Assembly: GCA_035575695.1 (NCBI GenBank)
Contig: DATLXP010000078.1
Location: 1,838-65,837, forward strand
Length of the DNA stretch: 64,000 bases
Reading direction: 5' to 3'
Source: Vicinamibacterales bacterium
GTDB lineage: Bacteria; Acidobacteriota; Vicinamibacteria; Vicinamibacterales; 2-12-FULL-66-21
The position numbers and the translations under genes are program-made. The notes beneath the pieces were generated by a model, which did not search any database, had not been told where the DNA came from, and worked only from the letters and a program-made list of their open reading frames with translations. Positions 11,855 to 42,917 of this stretch are shown one piece after another. The stretch's first letter is position 1; the number at the start of each line of letters is the position of its first letter.

Positions 11855-11873
11855 GGAACCCGGATGCCATCAG

Positions 11874-11930
11874 ACCGATGGACCGATGGACCGATGGGCC
11901 GATGAGCCGATGAGCCGATAAACCGATAAG
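11874..11930. repeat. 8-bp tandem repeat array, 7 units (ACCGATGG x3, GCCGATGA x2, GCCGATAA, ACCGATAA)
   Basis: CCGAT recurs at exactly 8-nt spacing (11875, 11883 ... 11923). The unit is the reverse complement of the unit in the 39965-40078 array. Confidence 0.85.
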
Positions 11931-22596: not shown

Positions 22597-24093
22597 ATGA
22601 TTCACATCATCGGTGGCGGACTGGCCGGCAGCGAGGCGGCGTGGCAAGCCGCCTCCCTGGGCGTGCCCGTCACGCTCTACGAGATGCGGCCGGTGCGTCC
22701 TACCGTTGTTCACAAGACTGACGGGCTCGCCGAGCTGGTCTGCAGCAACTCCTTCCGTGGCGACAAGCTTGATAACGCCGTAGGCCTGCTGAAGGAAGAG
22801 ATGCGGCGGCTTGGATCGCTCGTCATGCGCGCCGCCGAGGTCGCGCGGGTGCCCGCGGGGGCGGCGCTCGCCGTCGATCGTGAGAAGTTTTCTGACGAAG
22901 TGACGCGCGCGCTGTTGTCCCACCCCCTCATCACGATCCGCCGCGAAGAGATCCAGCAGGTACCGGACGGGCTCGATGGCCCGGTGATCCTGGCCACCGG
23001 TCCGTTGACGTCCGACGCGTTGTCGCGCGCGATCGCGGCGCTGGTGGGTGGCGACCACTTGTATTTCTATGACGCCATCAGCCCGATCGTTCTCGCCGAG
23101 TCGATCGATCGGAGCAAGGTGTTCCGTGCGTCCCGGTGGGGCCGCAGTCTCCGAGGGGACAGCCACCATTTGACCTCAAACGAAGGGGACAGCCACCAAT
23201 TGACCCCAGGTGAAGGGGACAGCCACCAATTGACCTGCCCGCCGGAATTGGTGGCTGTCCCCGTTTGTGGGGTGGATGACGGAGAAGGCGACTATTTGAA
23301 CTGCCCGTTCACCGCAGACGACTACGCGCGGTTCTACGAGGCGCTGATGTCGGCAGAAAAGACCTCGCTCCACGAATTCGACGACCCGAAATTCTTCGAG
23401 GGATGCCTGCCGATCGAAGTGATGGCGTCGCGCGGTGTGGACACGCTGCGGTTCGGGCCGATGAAACCGGTCGGCCTCATCGATCCGAAAACCGGACGCG
23501 AGGCCTACGCCGCCGTGCAATTGCGTCAGGATAACCTCGCCGCATCGCACTTCAGTCTGGTCGGCTTCCAGACCCAGATGAAGTGGAGTGAGCAGGCGCG
23601 AGTCCTGCGGCTGATTCCAGGACTCGAGCAGGCGGAGTTCGTCCGGTTCGGCATGATCCACCGCAATACCTACATCAACGGACCGACGGTGCTGCGCGAC
23701 ACCTGGCAGATGCGCGGCAGGGACGATCTGTTTTTTGCCGGACAGATTTCCGGGGTCGAGGGTTACGTCGAGTCCGCAGCCTCCGGCCTGATGGCAGGAC
23801 GAAACGCCGCCGCGCGTGCCCAGGGTCGCGAGCCGACCGCAGCGCCGCGGACGACCGCCATCGGGGCGCTGGCCTATTACGTATCGCACGCCAACCCGAA
23901 ACACTATCAACCGAGCAACATCACCTTCGGGATCATCCCGCCGCTCGTCCGTGAAGAGGGGGGGCCACGGGTGCCGAAAAAGAAGGCTGAGCGGAATGAG
24001 CGCCTGTCGACGCGGGCGCTGGCGCATCTTCAGGCCTGGATGGAGTCGGGCACGCCCGGAGATCAGGTGGGGCCCGAGGCGCTGGCACCATGA
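22597..24093 (+). CDS. trmFO: Methylenetetrahydrofolate-tRNA-(uracil-5-)-methyltransferase TrmFO (Gid), carrying an in-frame repeat-derived insertion
   Basis: MIHIIGGGLAGSEAAWQAA (FAD-binding motif) and ELVCSNSF, collinear with TrmFO. The exception is about 45 extra residues (GDSHHLTSNEGDSHQLTPGEGDSHQLTCPPELVAVPVCG) just before the conserved YLNCP. Confidence 0.93.
   Translation: MIHIIGGGLAGSEAAWQAASLGVPVTLYEMRPVRPTVVHKTDGLAELVCSNSFRGDKLDNAVGLLKEEMRRLGSLVMRAAEVARVPAGAALAVDREKFSDEVTRALLSHPLITIRREEIQQVPDGLDGPVILATGPLTSDALSRAIAALVGGDHLYFYDAISPIVLAESIDRSKVFRASRWGRSLRGDSHHLTSNEGDSHQLTPGEGDSHQLTCPPELVAVPVCGVDDGEGDYLNCPFTADDYARFYEALMSAEKTSLHEFDDPKFFEGCLPIEVMASRGVDTLRFGPMKPVGLIDPKTGREAYAAVQLRQDNLAASHFSLVGFQTQMKWSEQARVLRLIPGLEQAEFVRFGMIHRNTYINGPTVLRDTWQMRGRDDLFFAGQISGVEGYVESAASGLMAGRNAAARAQGREPTAAPRTTAIGALAYYVSHANPKHYQPSNITFGIIPPLVREEGGPRVPKKKAERNERLSTRALAHLQAWMESGTPGDQVGPEALAP
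23151..23267. repeat. Three 30-bp direct repeats plus one inverted copy of the GGGGACAGCCACC element, inside the trmFO coding sequence
   Basis: Units at 23151-23180, 23181-23210 and 23211-23240; adjacent units are 24/30 identical by my alignment. The inverted copy GGAATTGGTGGCTGTCCCCGTTTG lies at 23244-23267. Confidence 0.9.
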
Positions 24094-36395: not shown

Positions 36396-36441
36396 GTGCA
36401 CAAAGGGGCTGTCCCCTTCACAAAGGTGGCTGTCCCCTTCG
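36367..36441. repeat. One forward and two inverted copies of the GGGGACAGCCACC element between convergent genes
   Basis: CGAAGGGGACAGCCACCTTTGT at 36367-36388, ACAAAGGGGCTGTCCCCTTC at 36400-36419 (one base missing) and ACAAAGGTGGCTGTCCCCTTCG at 36420-36441. Confidence 0.9.
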
Positions 36442-37833: not shown

Positions 37834-37914
37834 GATTGCTCCTGGGGCGGTGCCCGGGCTGGCGCCGGGCTTCGATCCGCCTTTATGGTGGACTAAACCC
37901 GCACGTCCGTCAAA

Positions 37915-37930
37915 AGCAACAGGTCTGCCA
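37915..37930 (-). promoter_or_regulatory. Sigma-54 (-24/-12) promoter candidate: TGGCAGACCTGTTGCT
   Basis: The minus strand reads TGGCAG-N5-TTGCT with the exact GG-N10-GC spacing, about 80 nt upstream of the ATG at 37833. It lies inside the rejected long ORF extension. Confidence 0.5.
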
Positions 37931-38048
37931 CCGGCAGAGCTGTGGAACACGCCGAAAACACACAACGTGCCTCCTGGGATGTCCCTCAGCGAGTCCACCC
38001 CTGTCCCGCAACGCGGACACCCGCGCTTTGATAAACTCGGGTGCTTCG

Positions 38049-38576
38049 ATGATGCACGCCACGACAGTTCTAGCGGTCCGGCACCACGACCAGGCGGTCA
38101 TGGCGAGTGATGGACAGGTCACGCTGGGGACGACCGTCGTGAAGCACGCGGCGAAAAAGATCCGGCGCCTGTACAACGACCGCATCCTCGCCGGGTTCGC
38201 GGGGTCGGCGGCTGATTCTTTCGCGCTCTTCTCGCGATTCGAAGCCAAGCTCGAACAGTACCGGGGCAACCTGGAGCGCTCGGCGGTGGAGCTTGCAAAA
38301 GACTGGCGCACGGACCGCATGCTCCGCCGCCTCGAAGCCATGTTGATCGTGATGGACGGCAAGAGCACCTACCTGCTGTCGGGGACCGGCGATCTCATCG
38401 AACCCGACGACGGCATCATTGCGGTGGGATCGGGAGGTCCGTACGCGATGGCTGCCGCCAAGGCGCTCGCGGCGCACACCGAGCTCGATGCCCAGGCGAT
38501 CGCCAGGGAATCGATGATGATTGCCGGCAGGATCTGCATCTACACGAACGGAAACATCACGCTCGAGACGCTGTGA
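38049..38576 (+). CDS. hslV: ATP-dependent protease subunit HslV
   Basis: [11 protein letters not shown] (N-terminal Thr nucleophile), [10 protein letters not shown] and GSGGPYA motifs. Confidence 0.93.
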
Positions 38577-39964
38577 ACCGCATGGCCATTCCTCTCCCAG
38601 AAACCTCGGCGACCACCATCGAGGCCTTGACGCCACGGCAGATCGTCGCCGAACTCGACAAACACGTCGTCGGACAGGCGCAGGCGAAGCGCGCGGTGGC
38701 GATCGCCCTGCGAAACCGTGCGCGCCGGCAGAAGCTGCCCGCGGAACTCGCTGAAGAGATCGCGCCGAAAAACATCCTGATGATCGGCCCGACCGGCGTC
38801 GGCAAGACGGAGATCGCCCGGCGCCTGGCGAAGCTGGCCCAGTCTCCCTTCATCAAGGTCGAAGCGTCGAAGTTCACCGAGGTGGGGTACGTCGGGCGCG
38901 ATGTCGAGTCGATGGTGCGCGACCTGGTGGAGATCGCCGTCGGGATGGTCCGCGAGGAACGGCGGGCTGAGGTCCACCACAAGGCGCGCGAAACGGCTGA
39001 AGAGCGGGTGCTCGACCTGCTGCTGCCGCCTCTTCCCGCGGCGAGTGAATACGACGAGCAGTCGACGTCCGTCCGCGAGCAGGCGCAACGCACGCGCGAG
39101 AAACTGCGGGATCAGCTGCGCGCCGGCCGTCTCGATCACAAGCACCTCGAGATCGACGTCCGCGAGAAGTCGTTCCCGTCGTTCGAGATCGTGGCGGGTT
39201 CATCGGTCGAGGAAGTCGACATCAACATGAAGGACATGATGGGCGGTCTCTTCGCGGGACGGACGAAGAAGCGCCGGCTGCGCGTGCCGGACGCGCTCGA
39301 CGCGCTCGCGCAGGAGGAGGAACAGAAGTTGATCGACATGGACTCGGTTGCGCGCGCCGCAGTCGACCGCGTCCAGCAGGCGGGGATCATCTTCATCGAC
39401 GAGATCGACAAGGTCGCCGGCCGCGAGGGCGGACACGGGCCAGACGTGAGCCGCGAAGGGGTACAGCGCGACATCCTCCCGATTGTCGAGGGCACGACGG
39501 TCAATACGAAGTACGGGATGGTGAAGACCGACCACGTGCTCTTCGTGGCCGCCGGGGCCTTTCACGTGTCGAAGCCGTCCGACCTGATTCCTGAGCTGCA
39601 GGGGCGCTTTCCGATCCGGGTAGAGCTCGAAGCGCTCGTGCGAGCAGACTTCGTGCGCATCCTGACGGAACCGAAGAATGCGCTCGTCAAGCAGTACACC
39701 GCACTCCTCTCGACGGAGGGTGTGACATTGCGGTTCACCCCCGGCGCGATCGATCGGATTGCCGACTTCGCGACGCTCGTGAATGACCGCACGGAGAACA
39801 TCGGCGCGCGGCGGCTCCACACCGTCATGGAAAAACTCCTCGACGAAGTCTCGTTCGAGGCGCCGGACCTCGACCAGAAGCACCTGACGATCGACGAGGC
39901 ATATGTCGACAGGATGCTGGCGGAGATTGCCGGCAACGAAGATCTGTCGAGGTACATTCTTTGA
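38573..39964 (+). CDS. hslU: ATP-dependent protease ATPase subunit HslU
   Basis: [17 protein letters not shown], Walker [26 protein letters not shown]-terminal LSRYIL. Confidence 0.96.
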
Positions 39965-40078
39965 GGATCGACTCATCGACTCATCGACTTATCGATTCAT
40001 CGGGTCATCGACTCATCGACTCATCGATGCATCGACTCATCGACGCATCGACCTGTCGGCTGATCGGGCTATCGGTGA
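39965..40078. repeat. 8-bp tandem repeat array, about 14 units (consensus CGACTCAT / TCATCGAC)
   Basis: ATCG recurs every 8 nt from 39967 to 40071, with one degenerate unit at 40055. The array starts 3 nt after the hslU stop and runs through the candidate ATG (40027) of the next gene. Confidence 0.9.
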
Positions 40079-41286
40079 TGTGCGGAGTGCTGTCGGGCGC
40101 ATGCGGCAAGGTCGGCCCCCCCCTGGCGCCGCTGCGCCTCATGCCGGCGGCGGTGACCGATGTCGTGGCCCGGCGCGCGGGTAACGAGGTGCGCTTCACC
40201 TTCGTGCTCCCGGTCCGAAACGAGAACGGGCCGGGACCGATCGATCTGGGCCGGGTCGAAGTCTACGCCGGCACGGTGGCGGCCGGCGCCGTCAATCCGC
40301 CCAACAGAGAGCTGTTCGTGCCCGGCAATCTCATTGCCACGATCGACGTGAAGCAGCCGGTCCCTGAGGGCACGTCCGAGCTGCCTGCGCGGCCAAACGA
40401 TATTCGGCCATCAGCCGGCGAGACGACGACCTTTGTCGAGGAGTTGAACGCGGCGAAACTCACGCCGGTGTTCACGACCGTCGCGCCACCGGTGCTGCAG
40501 GCGCCGGTCATCGCCACGACGGCCACGACGGCCACGACAGCCACCGTCGTGCCGACGACTCCGGTGGAGCCGCCGCTCCCACCATTGGCGACGAGGATCT
40601 ACGGCATCAGAGGCGCGACCCGTGGTGGACGCCCAGGGTCCCCTGCCGCGCGGATCACGATCCCGCTCGTGGATCCGCCCCCCGCGCCGACAGGCGTCAT
40701 CGCGCGCGTGACGGAGACCGGCATCGTCTTGTCATGGACGCCACCCGCGGGTGCGATCGTGCCGGGTGCGACACTGCCGACGGCGTCACCGGTGGGCTTC
40801 AACGTGTATCGGTCTCTGGATCGCGAGGACCCGGCGCCGCTGAATGCTGCGCCCATCGTCGCGGCGCCATTCGAGCGCGTTGGCGTCACGTTCGGACAGG
40901 AGGAATGCTTCGTCGTGCGTTCCGTGATGATGGCGCGCGGCGCGACGATCGAGAGCGCGCCCTCCGAACGCGTGTGCACGACACCAGCCGATACCTTCGC
41001 GCCTGCCGAGCCGAAGAGCCTTCAGGCCGTGGCGTCCACGGGCGCGATCAGCCTGATCTGGGACGCCAATACCGACAGCGATCTGGGGGGATACCTGGTG
41101 TTGCGCGGGGTGGCTCCCGGTGACACACTTCAAGCGCTCACGCCAGCGCCTATCCGTGACACGACCTTCCGCGATACGACGACGAAGCCCGGCGTCCGCT
41201 ACGTCTACGCGATCGTCGCGGTGGACCGCGCCACGCCGCCAAATGTGAGCGGCCAGTCGAACCGCGCTGAAGAGACCGCCAGATGA
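40027..41286 (+). CDS. Lipoprotein with fibronectin-type-III-like domains
   Basis: ATG at 40027 yields a plausible signal peptide with lipobox (LIGLSVMCGVLSGAC). FN3-like segments (IVLSWTPP...GFNVYRS; ISLIWDAN...GGYLVLRG...YVYAIVAVD). The start is uncertain because of the repeat array. Confidence 0.65.
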   Translation: MHRLIDASTCRLIGLSVMCGVLSGACGKVGPPLAPLRLMPAAVTDVVARRAGNEVRFTFVLPVRNENGPGPIDLGRVEVYAGTVAAGAVNPPNRELFVPGNLIATIDVKQPVPEGTSELPARPNDIRPSAGETTTFVEELNAAKLTPVFTTVAPPVLQAPVIATTATTATTATVVPTTPVEPPLPPLATRIYGIRGATRGGRPGSPAARITIPLVDPPPAPTGVIARVTETGIVLSWTPPAGAIVPGATLPTASPVGFNVYRSLDREDPAPLNAAPIVAAPFERVGVTFGQEECFVVRSVMMARGATIESAPSERVCTTPADTFAPAEPKSLQAVASTGAISLIWDANTDSDLGGYLVLRGVAPGDTLQALTPAPIRDTTFRDTTTKPGVRYVYAIVAVDRATPPNVSGQSNRAEETAR

Positions 41287-42044
41287 AACGATTCTTTCGT
41301 ATCGATCACAAGGGGAACGCCCGGCACGCCGTGGAGGAGGCCGGTCAGTGGACGCTCATCGAGGGGGATATCTTCGGTGAATTCAGCGCCGGCGACCGTC
41401 TCGAACCGACCGGTCATCGGCTGCTTGCGCCGGTGCTACCGTCGAAGATAGTCTGCGTTGGCCTCAACTACAGGGACCACGCCGCGGAAGTGAACAAGCC
41501 GCTGCCGGTCGAACCGCTCATCTTCATCAAGCCCTCAACGTGCGTCATCGGCCCTGACGAGTCGATCGTGCTGCCGGAAGGCGCCGGGCGCATCGACCAC
41601 GAAGCGGAAGCTGGCGTGGTCATCGGGCGGCGGGCGTCGCACGTGCGCGAAGAGGACGCGCAGGATTACATCTTCGGGCTCATCTGCGTGAACGACGTCA
41701 CGGCCCGCGCCCTGCAGGAAAAAGGTGTGGGCTACACCTGGGCCAAGGGCTTCGATACATTTGCGCCCATCGGTCCCTGCATCGCCCAGGGTCTCGACTA
41801 CACGGCGCCGGACGGTCTGACGGTCGAGGGACTCGTCAACGGTGTGGTCCGGCAGTCATCCTCCACGCGGCAGCTGATCTTCCCGATCCCGCGGCTGATC
41901 GCCGTCATCTCGTCCATCATGACGCTCCTGCCGGGGGACATCATCTCCACCGGCACACCGTCCGGCATCGGCCCGTTGACCGCGGGGGACCGCGTCACCA
42001 TCAGGGTGCAGGGGGTCGGCGAGCTCACGAATCCGGTAGAGTAG
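41283..42044 (+). CDS. Fumarylacetoacetate hydrolase (FAH) family protein
   Basis: KIVCVGLNYRDHAAE, DHEAEAGVVIG, KGFDTFAPIGP and GDIISTGTPSGIG motifs. Confidence 0.88.
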   Translation: MKRFFRIDHKGNARHAVEEAGQWTLIEGDIFGEFSAGDRLEPTGHRLLAPVLPSKIVCVGLNYRDHAAEVNKPLPVEPLIFIKPSTCVIGPDESIVLPEGAGRIDHEAEAGVVIGRRASHVREEDAQDYIFGLICVNDVTARALQEKGVGYTWAKGFDTFAPIGPCIAQGLDYTAPDGLTVEGLVNGVVRQSSSTRQLIFPIPRLIAVISSIMTLLPGDIISTGTPSGIGPLTAGDRVTIRVQGVGELTNPVE

Positions 42045-42804: not shown

Positions 42805-42917
42805 GCCAGTAAACCCAGGTGTAGGCCCGACATTGCGACATTGAAGGTGTAGGCCCGACGTTCATGCCGGGCGTCTGACTTAAGGTGTAGGCCCGACATT
42901 CATGTCGGGCGTCTGAC
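42801..42917. repeat. REP-like hairpin cluster (TTCAT-loop variants)
   Basis: GTAGGCC at 42801-42807 contains the tal TAG stop (42802-42804). A partial copy starts at 42821. GTAGGCCCGACGTTCATGCCGGGCGTCTGAC at 42849-42879 and GTAGGCCCGACATTCATGTCGGGCGTCTGAC at 42887-42917. Confidence 0.8.

What the first reader, a model, noticed from the sequence alone, without database searches (positions are those of the whole stretch)
39965..40078. 14-unit 8-bp microsatellite running from the hslU stop through the start of a lipoprotein gene: possible phase-variation switch
ATCG recurs with strict 8-nt periodicity from 39967 to 40071. The units are CGACTCAT x2, CGACTTAT, CGATTCAT, CGGGTCAT, CGACTCAT x2, CGATGCAT, CGACTCAT, CGACGCAT and more degenerate 3' units. 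The only start that gives the downstream FN3 lipoprotein a usable signal peptide (ATG 40027, MHRLIDASTCRLIGLSVMCGVLSGAC) lies inside the array, with about six units downstream of it. Because 8 is not a multiple of 3, gain or loss of one unit would switch the reading frame, as in classical contingency loci. Unit degeneracy weakens but does not exclude slippage. Alternatively the array could be a protein-binding array.
Basis: partly seen in the sequence, partly recalled or inferred. Interest (0 to 1): 0.5.

Follow-up and report, generated by a model that had tools for sequence, protein, structure and literature searches.

The report
Octamer satellite inside lipoprotein signal peptide
An 8-base tandem repeat scattered through this soil acidobacterium's genome has also expanded inside the cleaved-off signal peptide of a conserved lipoprotein gene, where it appears to be translated and kept in frame rather than acting as an on/off switch.

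Summary
The array is real: 14 units of 8 bp at 39967-40078, 13 of them with an ATCG core, starting 2 nt after the hslU stop.

It is not locus-specific. This Vicinamibacterales MAG has 38 loci (56 arrays) of the same ATCG-R-Y-Y-N octamer. All the others are intergenic.

Here the array lies in coding sequence. In relatives the lipoprotein starts at an NTG overlapping the hslU TGA. The window keeps that start (TTG 39961), and the frame runs open through the array to the lipobox Cys (40102-40104).

Seven related junctions have leaders of 17-47 codons, all in frame. The sister contig has 5 units, and the difference is exactly 9 units (24 codons). So the repeat is translated as the disposable n-region of a signal peptide, and length changes are filtered for frame.

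A true phase switch is unlikely:
- The purest tract is only 23 nt.
- No out-of-frame allele was seen.
- A second assembly has the identical array.
- An internal ATG (40027) gives a normal 25-aa signal peptide that survives the likeliest slips.

Another note in this scan had already recorded 8-bp-period arrays elsewhere in this genome.

The parts
38049..38576 (+). hslV (proteolytic subunit); its stop overlaps the hslU start
   Evidence: NF003964 HslV 280 bits, matching residues 71-246 of ORF 37836-38576. The start near 38049 is inferred from where the profile match begins.
38573..39964 (+). hslU (ATPase subunit), stop TGA at 39962-39964
   Evidence: TIGR00390 hslU 652 bits against a cut-off of 362; ORF.
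39949..39952 (+). GAGG, a Shine-Dalgarno-like tetramer 8 nt upstream of TTG 39961, inside the hslU 3' end
   Evidence: Read from the sequence. Not conserved in all relatives, so this is weak evidence.
39961..39963 (+). TTG start codon overlapping the hslU stop (TTGA); orthologous to the GTG/TTG start of the lipoprotein gene in relatives
   Evidence: the NTG overlapping TGA is in frame with the lipobox at all 7 junctions of the repeat-leader clade, and it fits a normal-length signal peptide at most of the 19 order-level junctions. 84 of 95 homologues have residue 2 encoded by an A-starting codon.
39967..40078 (+). 14-unit 8-bp array (ATCGACTC consensus). Units 1-10 are purer. Units 11-14 are degenerate and encode the start of the hydrophobic core.
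40027..40029 (+). Internal in-frame ATG created by the unit variant ATCGATGC; gives a 25-residue leader of typical length
   Evidence: The gene caller used this start on the Logan contig. No SD-like sequence lies upstream.
40102..40104 (+). Lipobox cysteine codon (L-S-G-A-C), followed by the family-conserved G-K-x-G-P-P-L
39961..41286 (+). Conserved lipoprotein gene with a weak FN3 match; its stop overlaps the next start
   Evidence: Pfam fn3 E=1e-4, below the cut-off. Homologues found in 38 of 41 related genomes, always downstream of hslU in the 20 loci examined. 1898 homologues at E<=1e-20.
41283..42044 (+). FAA-hydrolase family gene; its ATG overlaps the lipoprotein stop (ATGA)
   Evidence: PF01557 209 bits; ORF.
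11873..11927 (-). Second member of the same octamer family in this window (7 units, CATCGGYY), in the divergent gap between a sigma-70/ECF-type gene and lysA

Best explanation
The array is a local expansion of a genome-wide, lineage-specific ATCG-core octamer satellite. At this one locus it grew inside the 5' coding region of a conserved lipoprotein gene. That gene has no intergenic space because its start codon overlaps the hslU stop (translational coupling). The expansion probably started from a two-unit seed already present in the codons for the conserved A-I-G-L-S stretch of the signal peptide, and it spread 5'-wards into the n-region. The repeat is translated, from TTG 39961 and/or from the internal ATG 40027. 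Three units make 24 nt, which reads as an 8-residue H-R-L-I-D-S-S-T repeat. It is tolerated because the whole leader is removed at the lipobox Cys. Replication slippage changes the unit number over evolutionary time, but only changes that keep the frame survive. Shown here: the array, the family, the orthologous start, the open frame, and in-frame length variation among relatives. Inferred: slippage as the mechanism, the seed origin, actual translation and cleavage, and which start is used.
For: The family is genome-wide. There are 56 arrays at 38 loci with ATCG at period 8, against 0-5 arrays at periods 5-7 and 9-11. The pattern gives 157 hits in this genome, 0-12 in congeners, almost none outside the genus, and 0 for the reversed control. 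Adjacent units are identical in 28% of cases against 4% for random unit pairs, a slippage or duplication signature.

At most of the 19 junctions from the same order, the lipoprotein frame opens at an NTG that overlaps the hslU TGA, giving a leader of normal length. The window has TTGA at the same place.

Seven junctions of the CATCG-leader clade have leaders of 47, 23, 45, 33, 17, 19 and 40 codons, all in frame and without stops. In L026, L027, L028 and L035 no other in-frame start leaves a usable signal peptide.

The sister contig L026 (77% identical protein) has the same hslU end and TTG start but 5 units. The difference is 72 nt, which is 9 units or 24 codons. L027 has alternating 8- and 7-nt units, a 15-nt triplet-compatible period that encodes H-R-V-I-G repeats.

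No RNA structure (z=-0.57), no Rfam match and no promoter- or terminator-like site compete with the coding reading.
Against: No direct evidence of translation or of signal-peptide cleavage exists. A 47-residue lipoprotein leader is far above the family median of 22 and beyond the usual position of the lipobox Cys. The n-region carries five Asp, which is unusual. L027 and L028 were picked because their called proteins were long, so only four of the six comparisons (L026, L033, L034, L035) are unbiased; for those, (1/3)^4 is about 0.012. One other frame of the array region is also free of stops, so openness alone is uninformative. Why this motif expands at 38 loci in this genome is unexplained.
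Confidence: 0.6

Rival explanations
1. It is a true contingency locus. Slipped-strand mispairing in the array changes unit number at an appreciable rate. This switches the lipoprotein on and off by frameshift, as with the CTCTT repeats in the leader-peptide coding region of Neisseria opa genes. The translationally coupled FAA-hydrolase gene downstream might switch with it.
For: The architecture matches: a non-triplet repeat between the start codon and the mature protein of an exported lipoprotein. Both off-frames stop within 25-34 codons. The unit number has changed in evolution, 5 against 14 units between sister lineages. The family shows homogenised runs typical of slippage. The opa precedent is documented in PMC3960869 and PMC3899988.
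Against: The tract is impure. The longest perfect run is 23 nt (2.9 units) and usable homologies are 13-21 nt. Impurities strongly lower repeat instability (PMC3899988). All 7 junctions are in frame, with no OFF allele. A second assembly that differs by 2 SNPs has the identical array. Single-unit slips in the two purest tracts lie upstream of ATG 40027 and would leave an ATG-initiated gene intact. The gene is conserved and syntenic across the order, unlike typical accessory contingency genes. 37 of the 38 family loci are intergenic, so the array's presence needs no locus-specific selection.
Confidence: 0.13
2. The octamer arrays are multi-site binding platforms for a DNA-binding protein, such as a nucleoid-associated protein or a global regulator. 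The hslU copy would then act at the DNA level, and its being translated would be incidental.
For: The core is strictly conserved (ATCG at 97-99%) with variable positions 5-8, as expected for a recognition core. The period is strictly 8. Half of the loci are inverted array pairs. Geobacter metallireducens has paired opposite-strand sites of four tandem octanucleotides, annotated as putative global-regulator sites (PMC2700814).
Against: Loci are spread over divergent, convergent and tandem gene gaps at about 11:8:16, close to random expectation, so there is no consistent promoter or terminator position. Unit numbers range from 4 to 20. No candidate binding protein was identified. Most congeners have few arrays or none. 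The locus has no promoter-like site.
Confidence: 0.12
3. The array is non-coding spacer. The lipoprotein starts downstream at GTG 40075 or ATG 40078, and the open frame through the array is an accident of unit composition.
For: Repeat units lack stop codons in two of three frames, so open frames arise for free. Gene callers picked downstream starts in several relatives.
Against: A start at 40075 or 40078 leaves only 8-9 residues before the lipobox Cys, with no charged n-region and too short a hydrophobic core. The family median is 22. Where short leaders had been called (L033, L034, L035), the DNA shows an in-frame NTG at the hslU overlap that gives a normal or long leader. In-frame conservation across 7 different lengths is unexpected for a spacer.
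Confidence: 0.05

Closest known systems
Neisseria opa genes: CTCTT pentamer coding repeats in the leader-peptide region (PMC3960869; PMC3899988)
   Same: A tandem repeat whose unit is not a multiple of 3 lies in the part of the gene that encodes the signal peptide of an envelope protein. The repeat itself encodes leader residues, and changes in unit number shift the frame of the mature protein.
   Different: The opa repeats are pure, numerous and switch at about 1e-3 per cell per generation, and genomes carry both ON and OFF copies. Here the tract is impure (at most 2.9 perfect units), all seven orthologues are in frame, an internal ATG bypasses the purest tracts, the gene is single-copy and conserved, and the host is a soil acidobacterium.
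Short tandemly repeated repetitive (STRR) heptanucleotide sequences of heterocystous cyanobacteria (own knowledge; mentioned in PMC2670836 and other papers listed)
   Same: Many dispersed, mostly intergenic arrays of a 7-8 nt unit occur in one lineage, with no known function. This genome also carries several heptamer families.
   Different: The phylum and the unit sequences differ. STRR are not known to me to form part of a translated signal peptide.
Geobacter metallireducens paired sites of tandem octanucleotide repeats (GTTGCTYN; PMC2700814)
   Same: Dispersed multicopy sites built from tandem 8-nt units, often as pairs on opposite strands at variable distance, with function unknown.
   Different: Those sites have a fixed four units and a different sequence, and some are associated with IS elements at a fixed distance. 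Here unit number runs from 4 to 20 and flanks share nothing.
Rickettsia palindromic elements inserted in frame in protein genes
   Same: A genome-wide repeat ends up translated inside a conserved gene, at a place that tolerates extra residues.
   Different: RPEs are about 100-150 bp palindromic mobile elements that remain in the mature protein. This is a direct octamer array, it has no hairpin, and it sits in a leader that is cleaved off.

Membership tests
SSR contingency locus (opa-type translational phase variation) | A repeat with unit length not divisible by 3, located between the start codon and the functional part of the protein | tested here: met
   The 8-bp units at 39967-40078 lie between TTG 39961 / ATG 40027 and Cys codon 40102.
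SSR contingency locus (opa-type translational phase variation) | A long, pure tract of identical units that supports frequent slipped-strand mispairing | tested here: not met
   The longest perfect period-8 tract is 23 nt (2.9 units). There are 9 different unit variants among the 14 units.
SSR contingency locus (opa-type translational phase variation) | Both in-frame and out-of-frame repeat numbers among strains or close relatives | tested here: not met
   All 7 junctions are in frame despite leaders of 17-47 codons. A near-identical second assembly has the same array. The sample is small.
SSR contingency locus (opa-type translational phase variation) | Length heterogeneity within a population, and ON/OFF expression | not testable with these tools
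There are no expression data.
Bacterial lipoprotein signal peptide (SPase II type) | A positively charged n-region, an uncharged hydrophobic core, a lipobox [LVI..][AST..][GAS]C, and a Cys within about 15-35 residues of the start (PROSITE PS51257-type rule, from memory) | tested here: inconclusive
   From ATG 40027 all conditions are met (Cys at residue 26, Arg at residue 3, core L-I-G-L-S-V-M-C-G-V-L-S-G-A). From TTG 39961 the Cys is at residue 48, beyond the usual range. No predictor was available.
Translationally coupled gene pair (overlapping NTGA) | The start codon of the downstream gene overlaps the stop codon of the upstream gene by 4 nt, and this is conserved among orthologues | tested here: met
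   TTGA at 39961-39964. GTGA or TTGA occurs at all 7 clade junctions and fits most of the 19 order-level junctions. 84 of 95 homologues have residue 2 from an A-starting codon. Actual coupling was not tested.
Dispersed short-tandem-repeat satellite (STRR-like) | Many dispersed arrays of one 7-8 nt unit family, mostly intergenic and lineage-restricted | tested here: met
   38 loci and 436 units, with 37 loci intergenic. The family is expanded in this genome relative to 40 relatives.
MITE / REP-BIME type mobile repeat | A conserved element body or termini beyond the short unit, with hairpin potential and shared flanks or target duplications | tested here: not met
   No similarity among 200-nt flanks of the 38 loci. 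The hslU array is direct only and folds no better than shuffles. About half of the other loci are inverted array pairs.

The most novel reading that the evidence does not exclude
The ATCG-core octamer arrays are the product of an active, sequence-directed expansion process specific to this lineage, for example a motif-specific nicking or binding protein that provokes template slippage. That process seeds and grows arrays wherever a two-unit seed exists, including inside tolerant coding leaders. The hslU-coupled lipoprotein leader would then be a natural reporter of it, and a low-rate, frame-dependent switch for the lipoprotein and the coupled FAA hydrolase.
Probability: 0.12. Interest if true: 0.6.

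Novelty: new variant of a known kind. Interest (0 to 1): 0.36.

Why it matters
The locus shows how a selfish or neutral short satellite can enter an essential-looking operon that has no intergenic space. It settles in the one coding segment that is discarded after export, and selection then acts only on frame.

It yields unusually long (40-47 residue), repeat-encoded lipoprotein leaders in several uncultured Vicinamibacterales. That bears on gene-start calling: callers chose three different kinds of start at these loci. It also bears on signal-peptide prediction.

The locus is a caution against reading every non-triplet repeat near a start codon as a contingency switch.

The genome-wide octamer family appears undescribed in Acidobacteriota in the papers I could search, and it may deserve study in its own right.

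Tried and rejected

More copies from the same species:
- The metagenome-contig scan gave 4 loci. The only close one (L029, 96%) lacks the 5' end.
- The genus holds only 13 genomes and none is close.
- hslU and the 441-aa product are not on record by exact sequence.
- The only extra copy is Logan contig L025, which is identical in the array.

P0003 (73% identity), with a suspiciously short called leader, could not be checked. Its contig is not on record and its genome is not among 112 family genomes.

Regulatory readings were tested and rejected: no mRNA structure (z=-0.57), no Rfam family, no sigma-70-like promoter and no intrinsic terminator.

The MITE or shared-flank hypothesis was rejected: 0 flank pairs were similar.

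A link between the arrays and a cargo gene was rejected. The C53 pair brackets a borderline 23S-rRNA-IVS-family gene, but this is a single case with only one weak paralogue elsewhere.

A literature search for 8-bp repeats in Acidobacteria found nothing.

My gene map is a crude GC3-based ORF filter. Calling the other 37 loci intergenic rests on it.

Full report
OBSERVATION

The sequence from 39967 to 40078 consists of 14 head-to-tail 8-bp units. Units 1, 2, 6, 7 and 9 read ATCGACTC. The others differ from that by one to four bases. Thirteen units begin with ATCG, and unit 12 begins with GTCG. Tandem Repeats Finder gives period 8, 10.8 copies, 84% matches and score 123. A two-unit probe matches 12 times in the window at up to 3 mismatches, against 1.09 expected, and 0 of 100 shuffles reached 12.

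The upstream gene is hslU (TIGR00390, 652 bits). Its TGA is at 39962-39964, two bases before the first unit.

THE ARRAY IS ONE OF A GENOME-WIDE FAMILY

The window holds a second array of a related unit at 11873-11927, between a sigma-factor gene and lysA.

In the whole assembly (3.85 Mb, 331 contigs, 65.8% GC), I scanned for ATCG at fixed spacing with at least 4 units. This found 56 arrays at period 8, against 0, 2, 1, 5, 1 and 0 at periods 5, 6, 7, 9, 10 and 11, and 22 at period 12. They merge into 38 loci.

The unit consensus is ATCG-R-Y-Y-N. The core is 97-99% conserved. Adjacent units are identical in 28% of cases against 4% for random pairs of units, which is the pattern expected from local duplication or slippage.

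About half of the loci are an array followed by its inverted counterpart. The 200-nt flanks of the loci share nothing, so the octamers are the only common element.

By a crude GC3-based gene map, 37 of the 38 loci are intergenic. They are spread over divergent, convergent and tandem gaps at about 11:8:16, so there is no preference for promoters or gene ends.

A five-unit pattern matches 157 times in this genome. It matches 0-12 times in the 12 other genomes of the genus and almost never in 28 other genera of the order. The reversed control gives 0. The organism is a Vicinamibacterales (Acidobacteriota) MAG, judged from the titles of related records. The genome also carries several heptamer satellites.

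AT THIS LOCUS THE ARRAY IS CODING

The gene downstream of hslU is a conserved lipoprotein. It is found in 38 of 41 related genomes and lies next to hslU in all 20 loci examined. The family shares C-G-K-x-G-P-P-L directly after the lipobox, and the median leader is 22 residues.

At most order-level junctions, an NTG overlapping the hslU stop (ctGTGA) opens the lipoprotein frame with a leader of ordinary length. In line with that overlap, 84 of 95 homologues with a plausible leader have a second residue encoded by an A-starting codon. Signal-peptide n-regions favour such residues anyway, so this is only supporting evidence.

The window has TTGA at exactly this place. TTG 39961 is in frame with the Cys codon at 40102-40104, and no stop lies between them. 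So there never was an intergenic region here. The array sits in the part of the gene that encodes the signal peptide.

RELATIVES WITH SHORTER AND LONGER VERSIONS

The closest homologue (P0002, 77% identity, Logan contig L026) has the same hslU end and the same TTG start, but only five ATCG units and a 23-residue leader. The length difference from the window is 72 nt, which is nine units or 24 codons.

Five further contigs of the same clade (60-64% identity) have 2 to 11 ATCG cores in the leader. Across the seven junctions the leaders are 47, 23, 45, 33, 17, 19 and 40 codons. All are in frame with the hslU-overlapping NTG and free of stops.

Seven different lengths need at least six length changes, and all of them preserved the frame. 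Two contigs were chosen because their called proteins were long. Counting only the four chosen without regard to frame gives roughly (1/3)^4, about 0.01.

In L026, L027, L028 and L035, no other in-frame ATG, GTG or TTG leaves more than 7 residues before the Cys. In those, the repeat region must be translated for the protein to have a signal peptide at all.

In L027 the units alternate between 8 and 7 nt. That gives a 15-nt period and a five-residue H-R-V-I-G repeat, which is again compatible with translation.

The degenerate 3' units of the window (units 12-14) encode R-L-I-G-L-S-V. This corresponds to the A-I-G-L-S stretch conserved in the clade. Those codons naturally hold two ATCG cores 8 nt apart. 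I infer that this was the seed and that the array grew 5'-wards from it into the unconstrained n-region.

WHICH START IS USED

Both TTG 39961 and ATG 40027 are in the same frame, so the sequence cannot decide between them.

- TTG 39961 is the orthologous, coupled start and has GAGG 8 nt upstream. Its leader of 47 residues is very long for a lipoprotein, though L027 (45) and L035 (40) have no alternative start.
- ATG 40027 has no SD-like sequence. It gives a 25-residue leader that satisfies the usual lipoprotein rules, and a gene caller chose it.

Either way the mature protein is the same.

IS IT A SWITCH?

The layout is that of the opa genes of Neisseria. There, CTCTT repeats in the leader-peptide coding region switch expression at about 1e-3 per cell per generation (PMC3960869; PMC3899988). 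Several results argue against the same behaviour here:

- The tract is impure. The longest perfect run is 23 nt. All direct homologies of 10 nt or more are 13-21 nt long and lie within 39967-40044. None lies 3' of 40044. Impurity strongly lowers repeat instability (PMC3899988).
- Single-unit slips in the two purest tracts (39967-39989 and 40005-40027) fall upstream of ATG 40027. They would shift the TTG frame but not the ATG frame.
- No out-of-frame allele was seen among the seven junctions.
- A second assembly of nearly the same strain (2 SNPs in 2273 bp) has the identical array.
- The gene is conserved and syntenic across the order, unlike typical contingency genes.
- The presence of the array is explained by a genome-wide process, not by selection at this locus.

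I therefore leave about 13% for a real switch, possibly one of low rate.

OTHER READINGS

- A non-coding spacer with a start at 40075 or 40078 would leave an 8-9 residue leader. It is contradicted by the relatives.
- A DNA-level role as a protein-binding array remains possible for the family as a whole. Geobacter metallireducens has comparable tandem-octamer sites of unknown function (PMC2700814). No positional bias, promoter, terminator, RNA family or RNA structure supports it at this locus.

VERDICT

The best reading is a translated, frame-filtered expansion of a dispersed octamer satellite in the cleaved leader of an hslU-coupled lipoprotein. It is a new variant of known kinds: coding non-triplet repeats in leader peptides, and dispersed short satellites. 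Interest is moderate.

I confirmed that pair and the borderline Pfam match of the gene between them.

Noticed in passing
window 11873-11927: Second ATCG-core octamer array (7 units), filling much of the divergent gap between an ECF-type sigma-factor gene on the minus strand (start 11789) and lysA on the plus strand (start 11944).
   Followed up: partly
window 38573-38576, 39961-39964, 41283-41286: hslV, hslU, the lipoprotein gene and the FAA-hydrolase gene form a chain of three 4-nt start/stop overlaps (GTGA, TTGA, ATGA). A frameshift in the array could therefore also uncouple translation of the hydrolase.
   Followed up: no
G000 genome-wide (for example C53:25630-25782, C181:4232-4389, C224:16719-16848): About half of the 38 octamer loci are back-to-back inverted arrays, (ATCGACTT)n followed by (AAGTCGAT)n. 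These would form long imperfect hairpins. At 8 or more loci the array begins within -1 to +4 nt of the upstream gene's stop codon.
   Followed up: partly
G000:C53:13007-13666 (L039): A 181-aa gene of the 23S-rRNA-intervening-sequence protein family (PF05635, 33.6 bits against a cut-off of 33.8) is bracketed by inverted octamer arrays between two convergent genes. This is a single case, with one weak paralogue on C137.
   Followed up: partly
G000 genome-wide: Several heptamer satellite families are present: canonical units ACGTCGC in 34 TRF rows, AACCCTG in 18 and AAGCTGG in 16. There is also a second octamer family with an ACGTGC core. Period-7 arrays cover about 8 kb and period-8 arrays about 4 kb.
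   Followed up: no
L027:222-360: In a 60%-identical relative the leader array alternates 8- and 7-nt CATCGGG(T) units. The result is a 15-nt period that reads as an in-frame H-R-V-I-G pentapeptide repeat within a 45-residue leader.
   Followed up: partly
G007:C4:115696-115819: A congener that otherwise shows no array hits carries one nearly pure ATCGGCTC array of about 16 units, much purer than the one studied here.
   Followed up: no
window 23154-23236, 36399-36440, 42844-42917: Other tandem or palindromic repeats (30-bp, 21-bp and 38-bp units) reported by TRF. Earlier notes of the scan discuss the first two as a hairpin repeat family that is also found in frame in trmFO.
   Followed up: no
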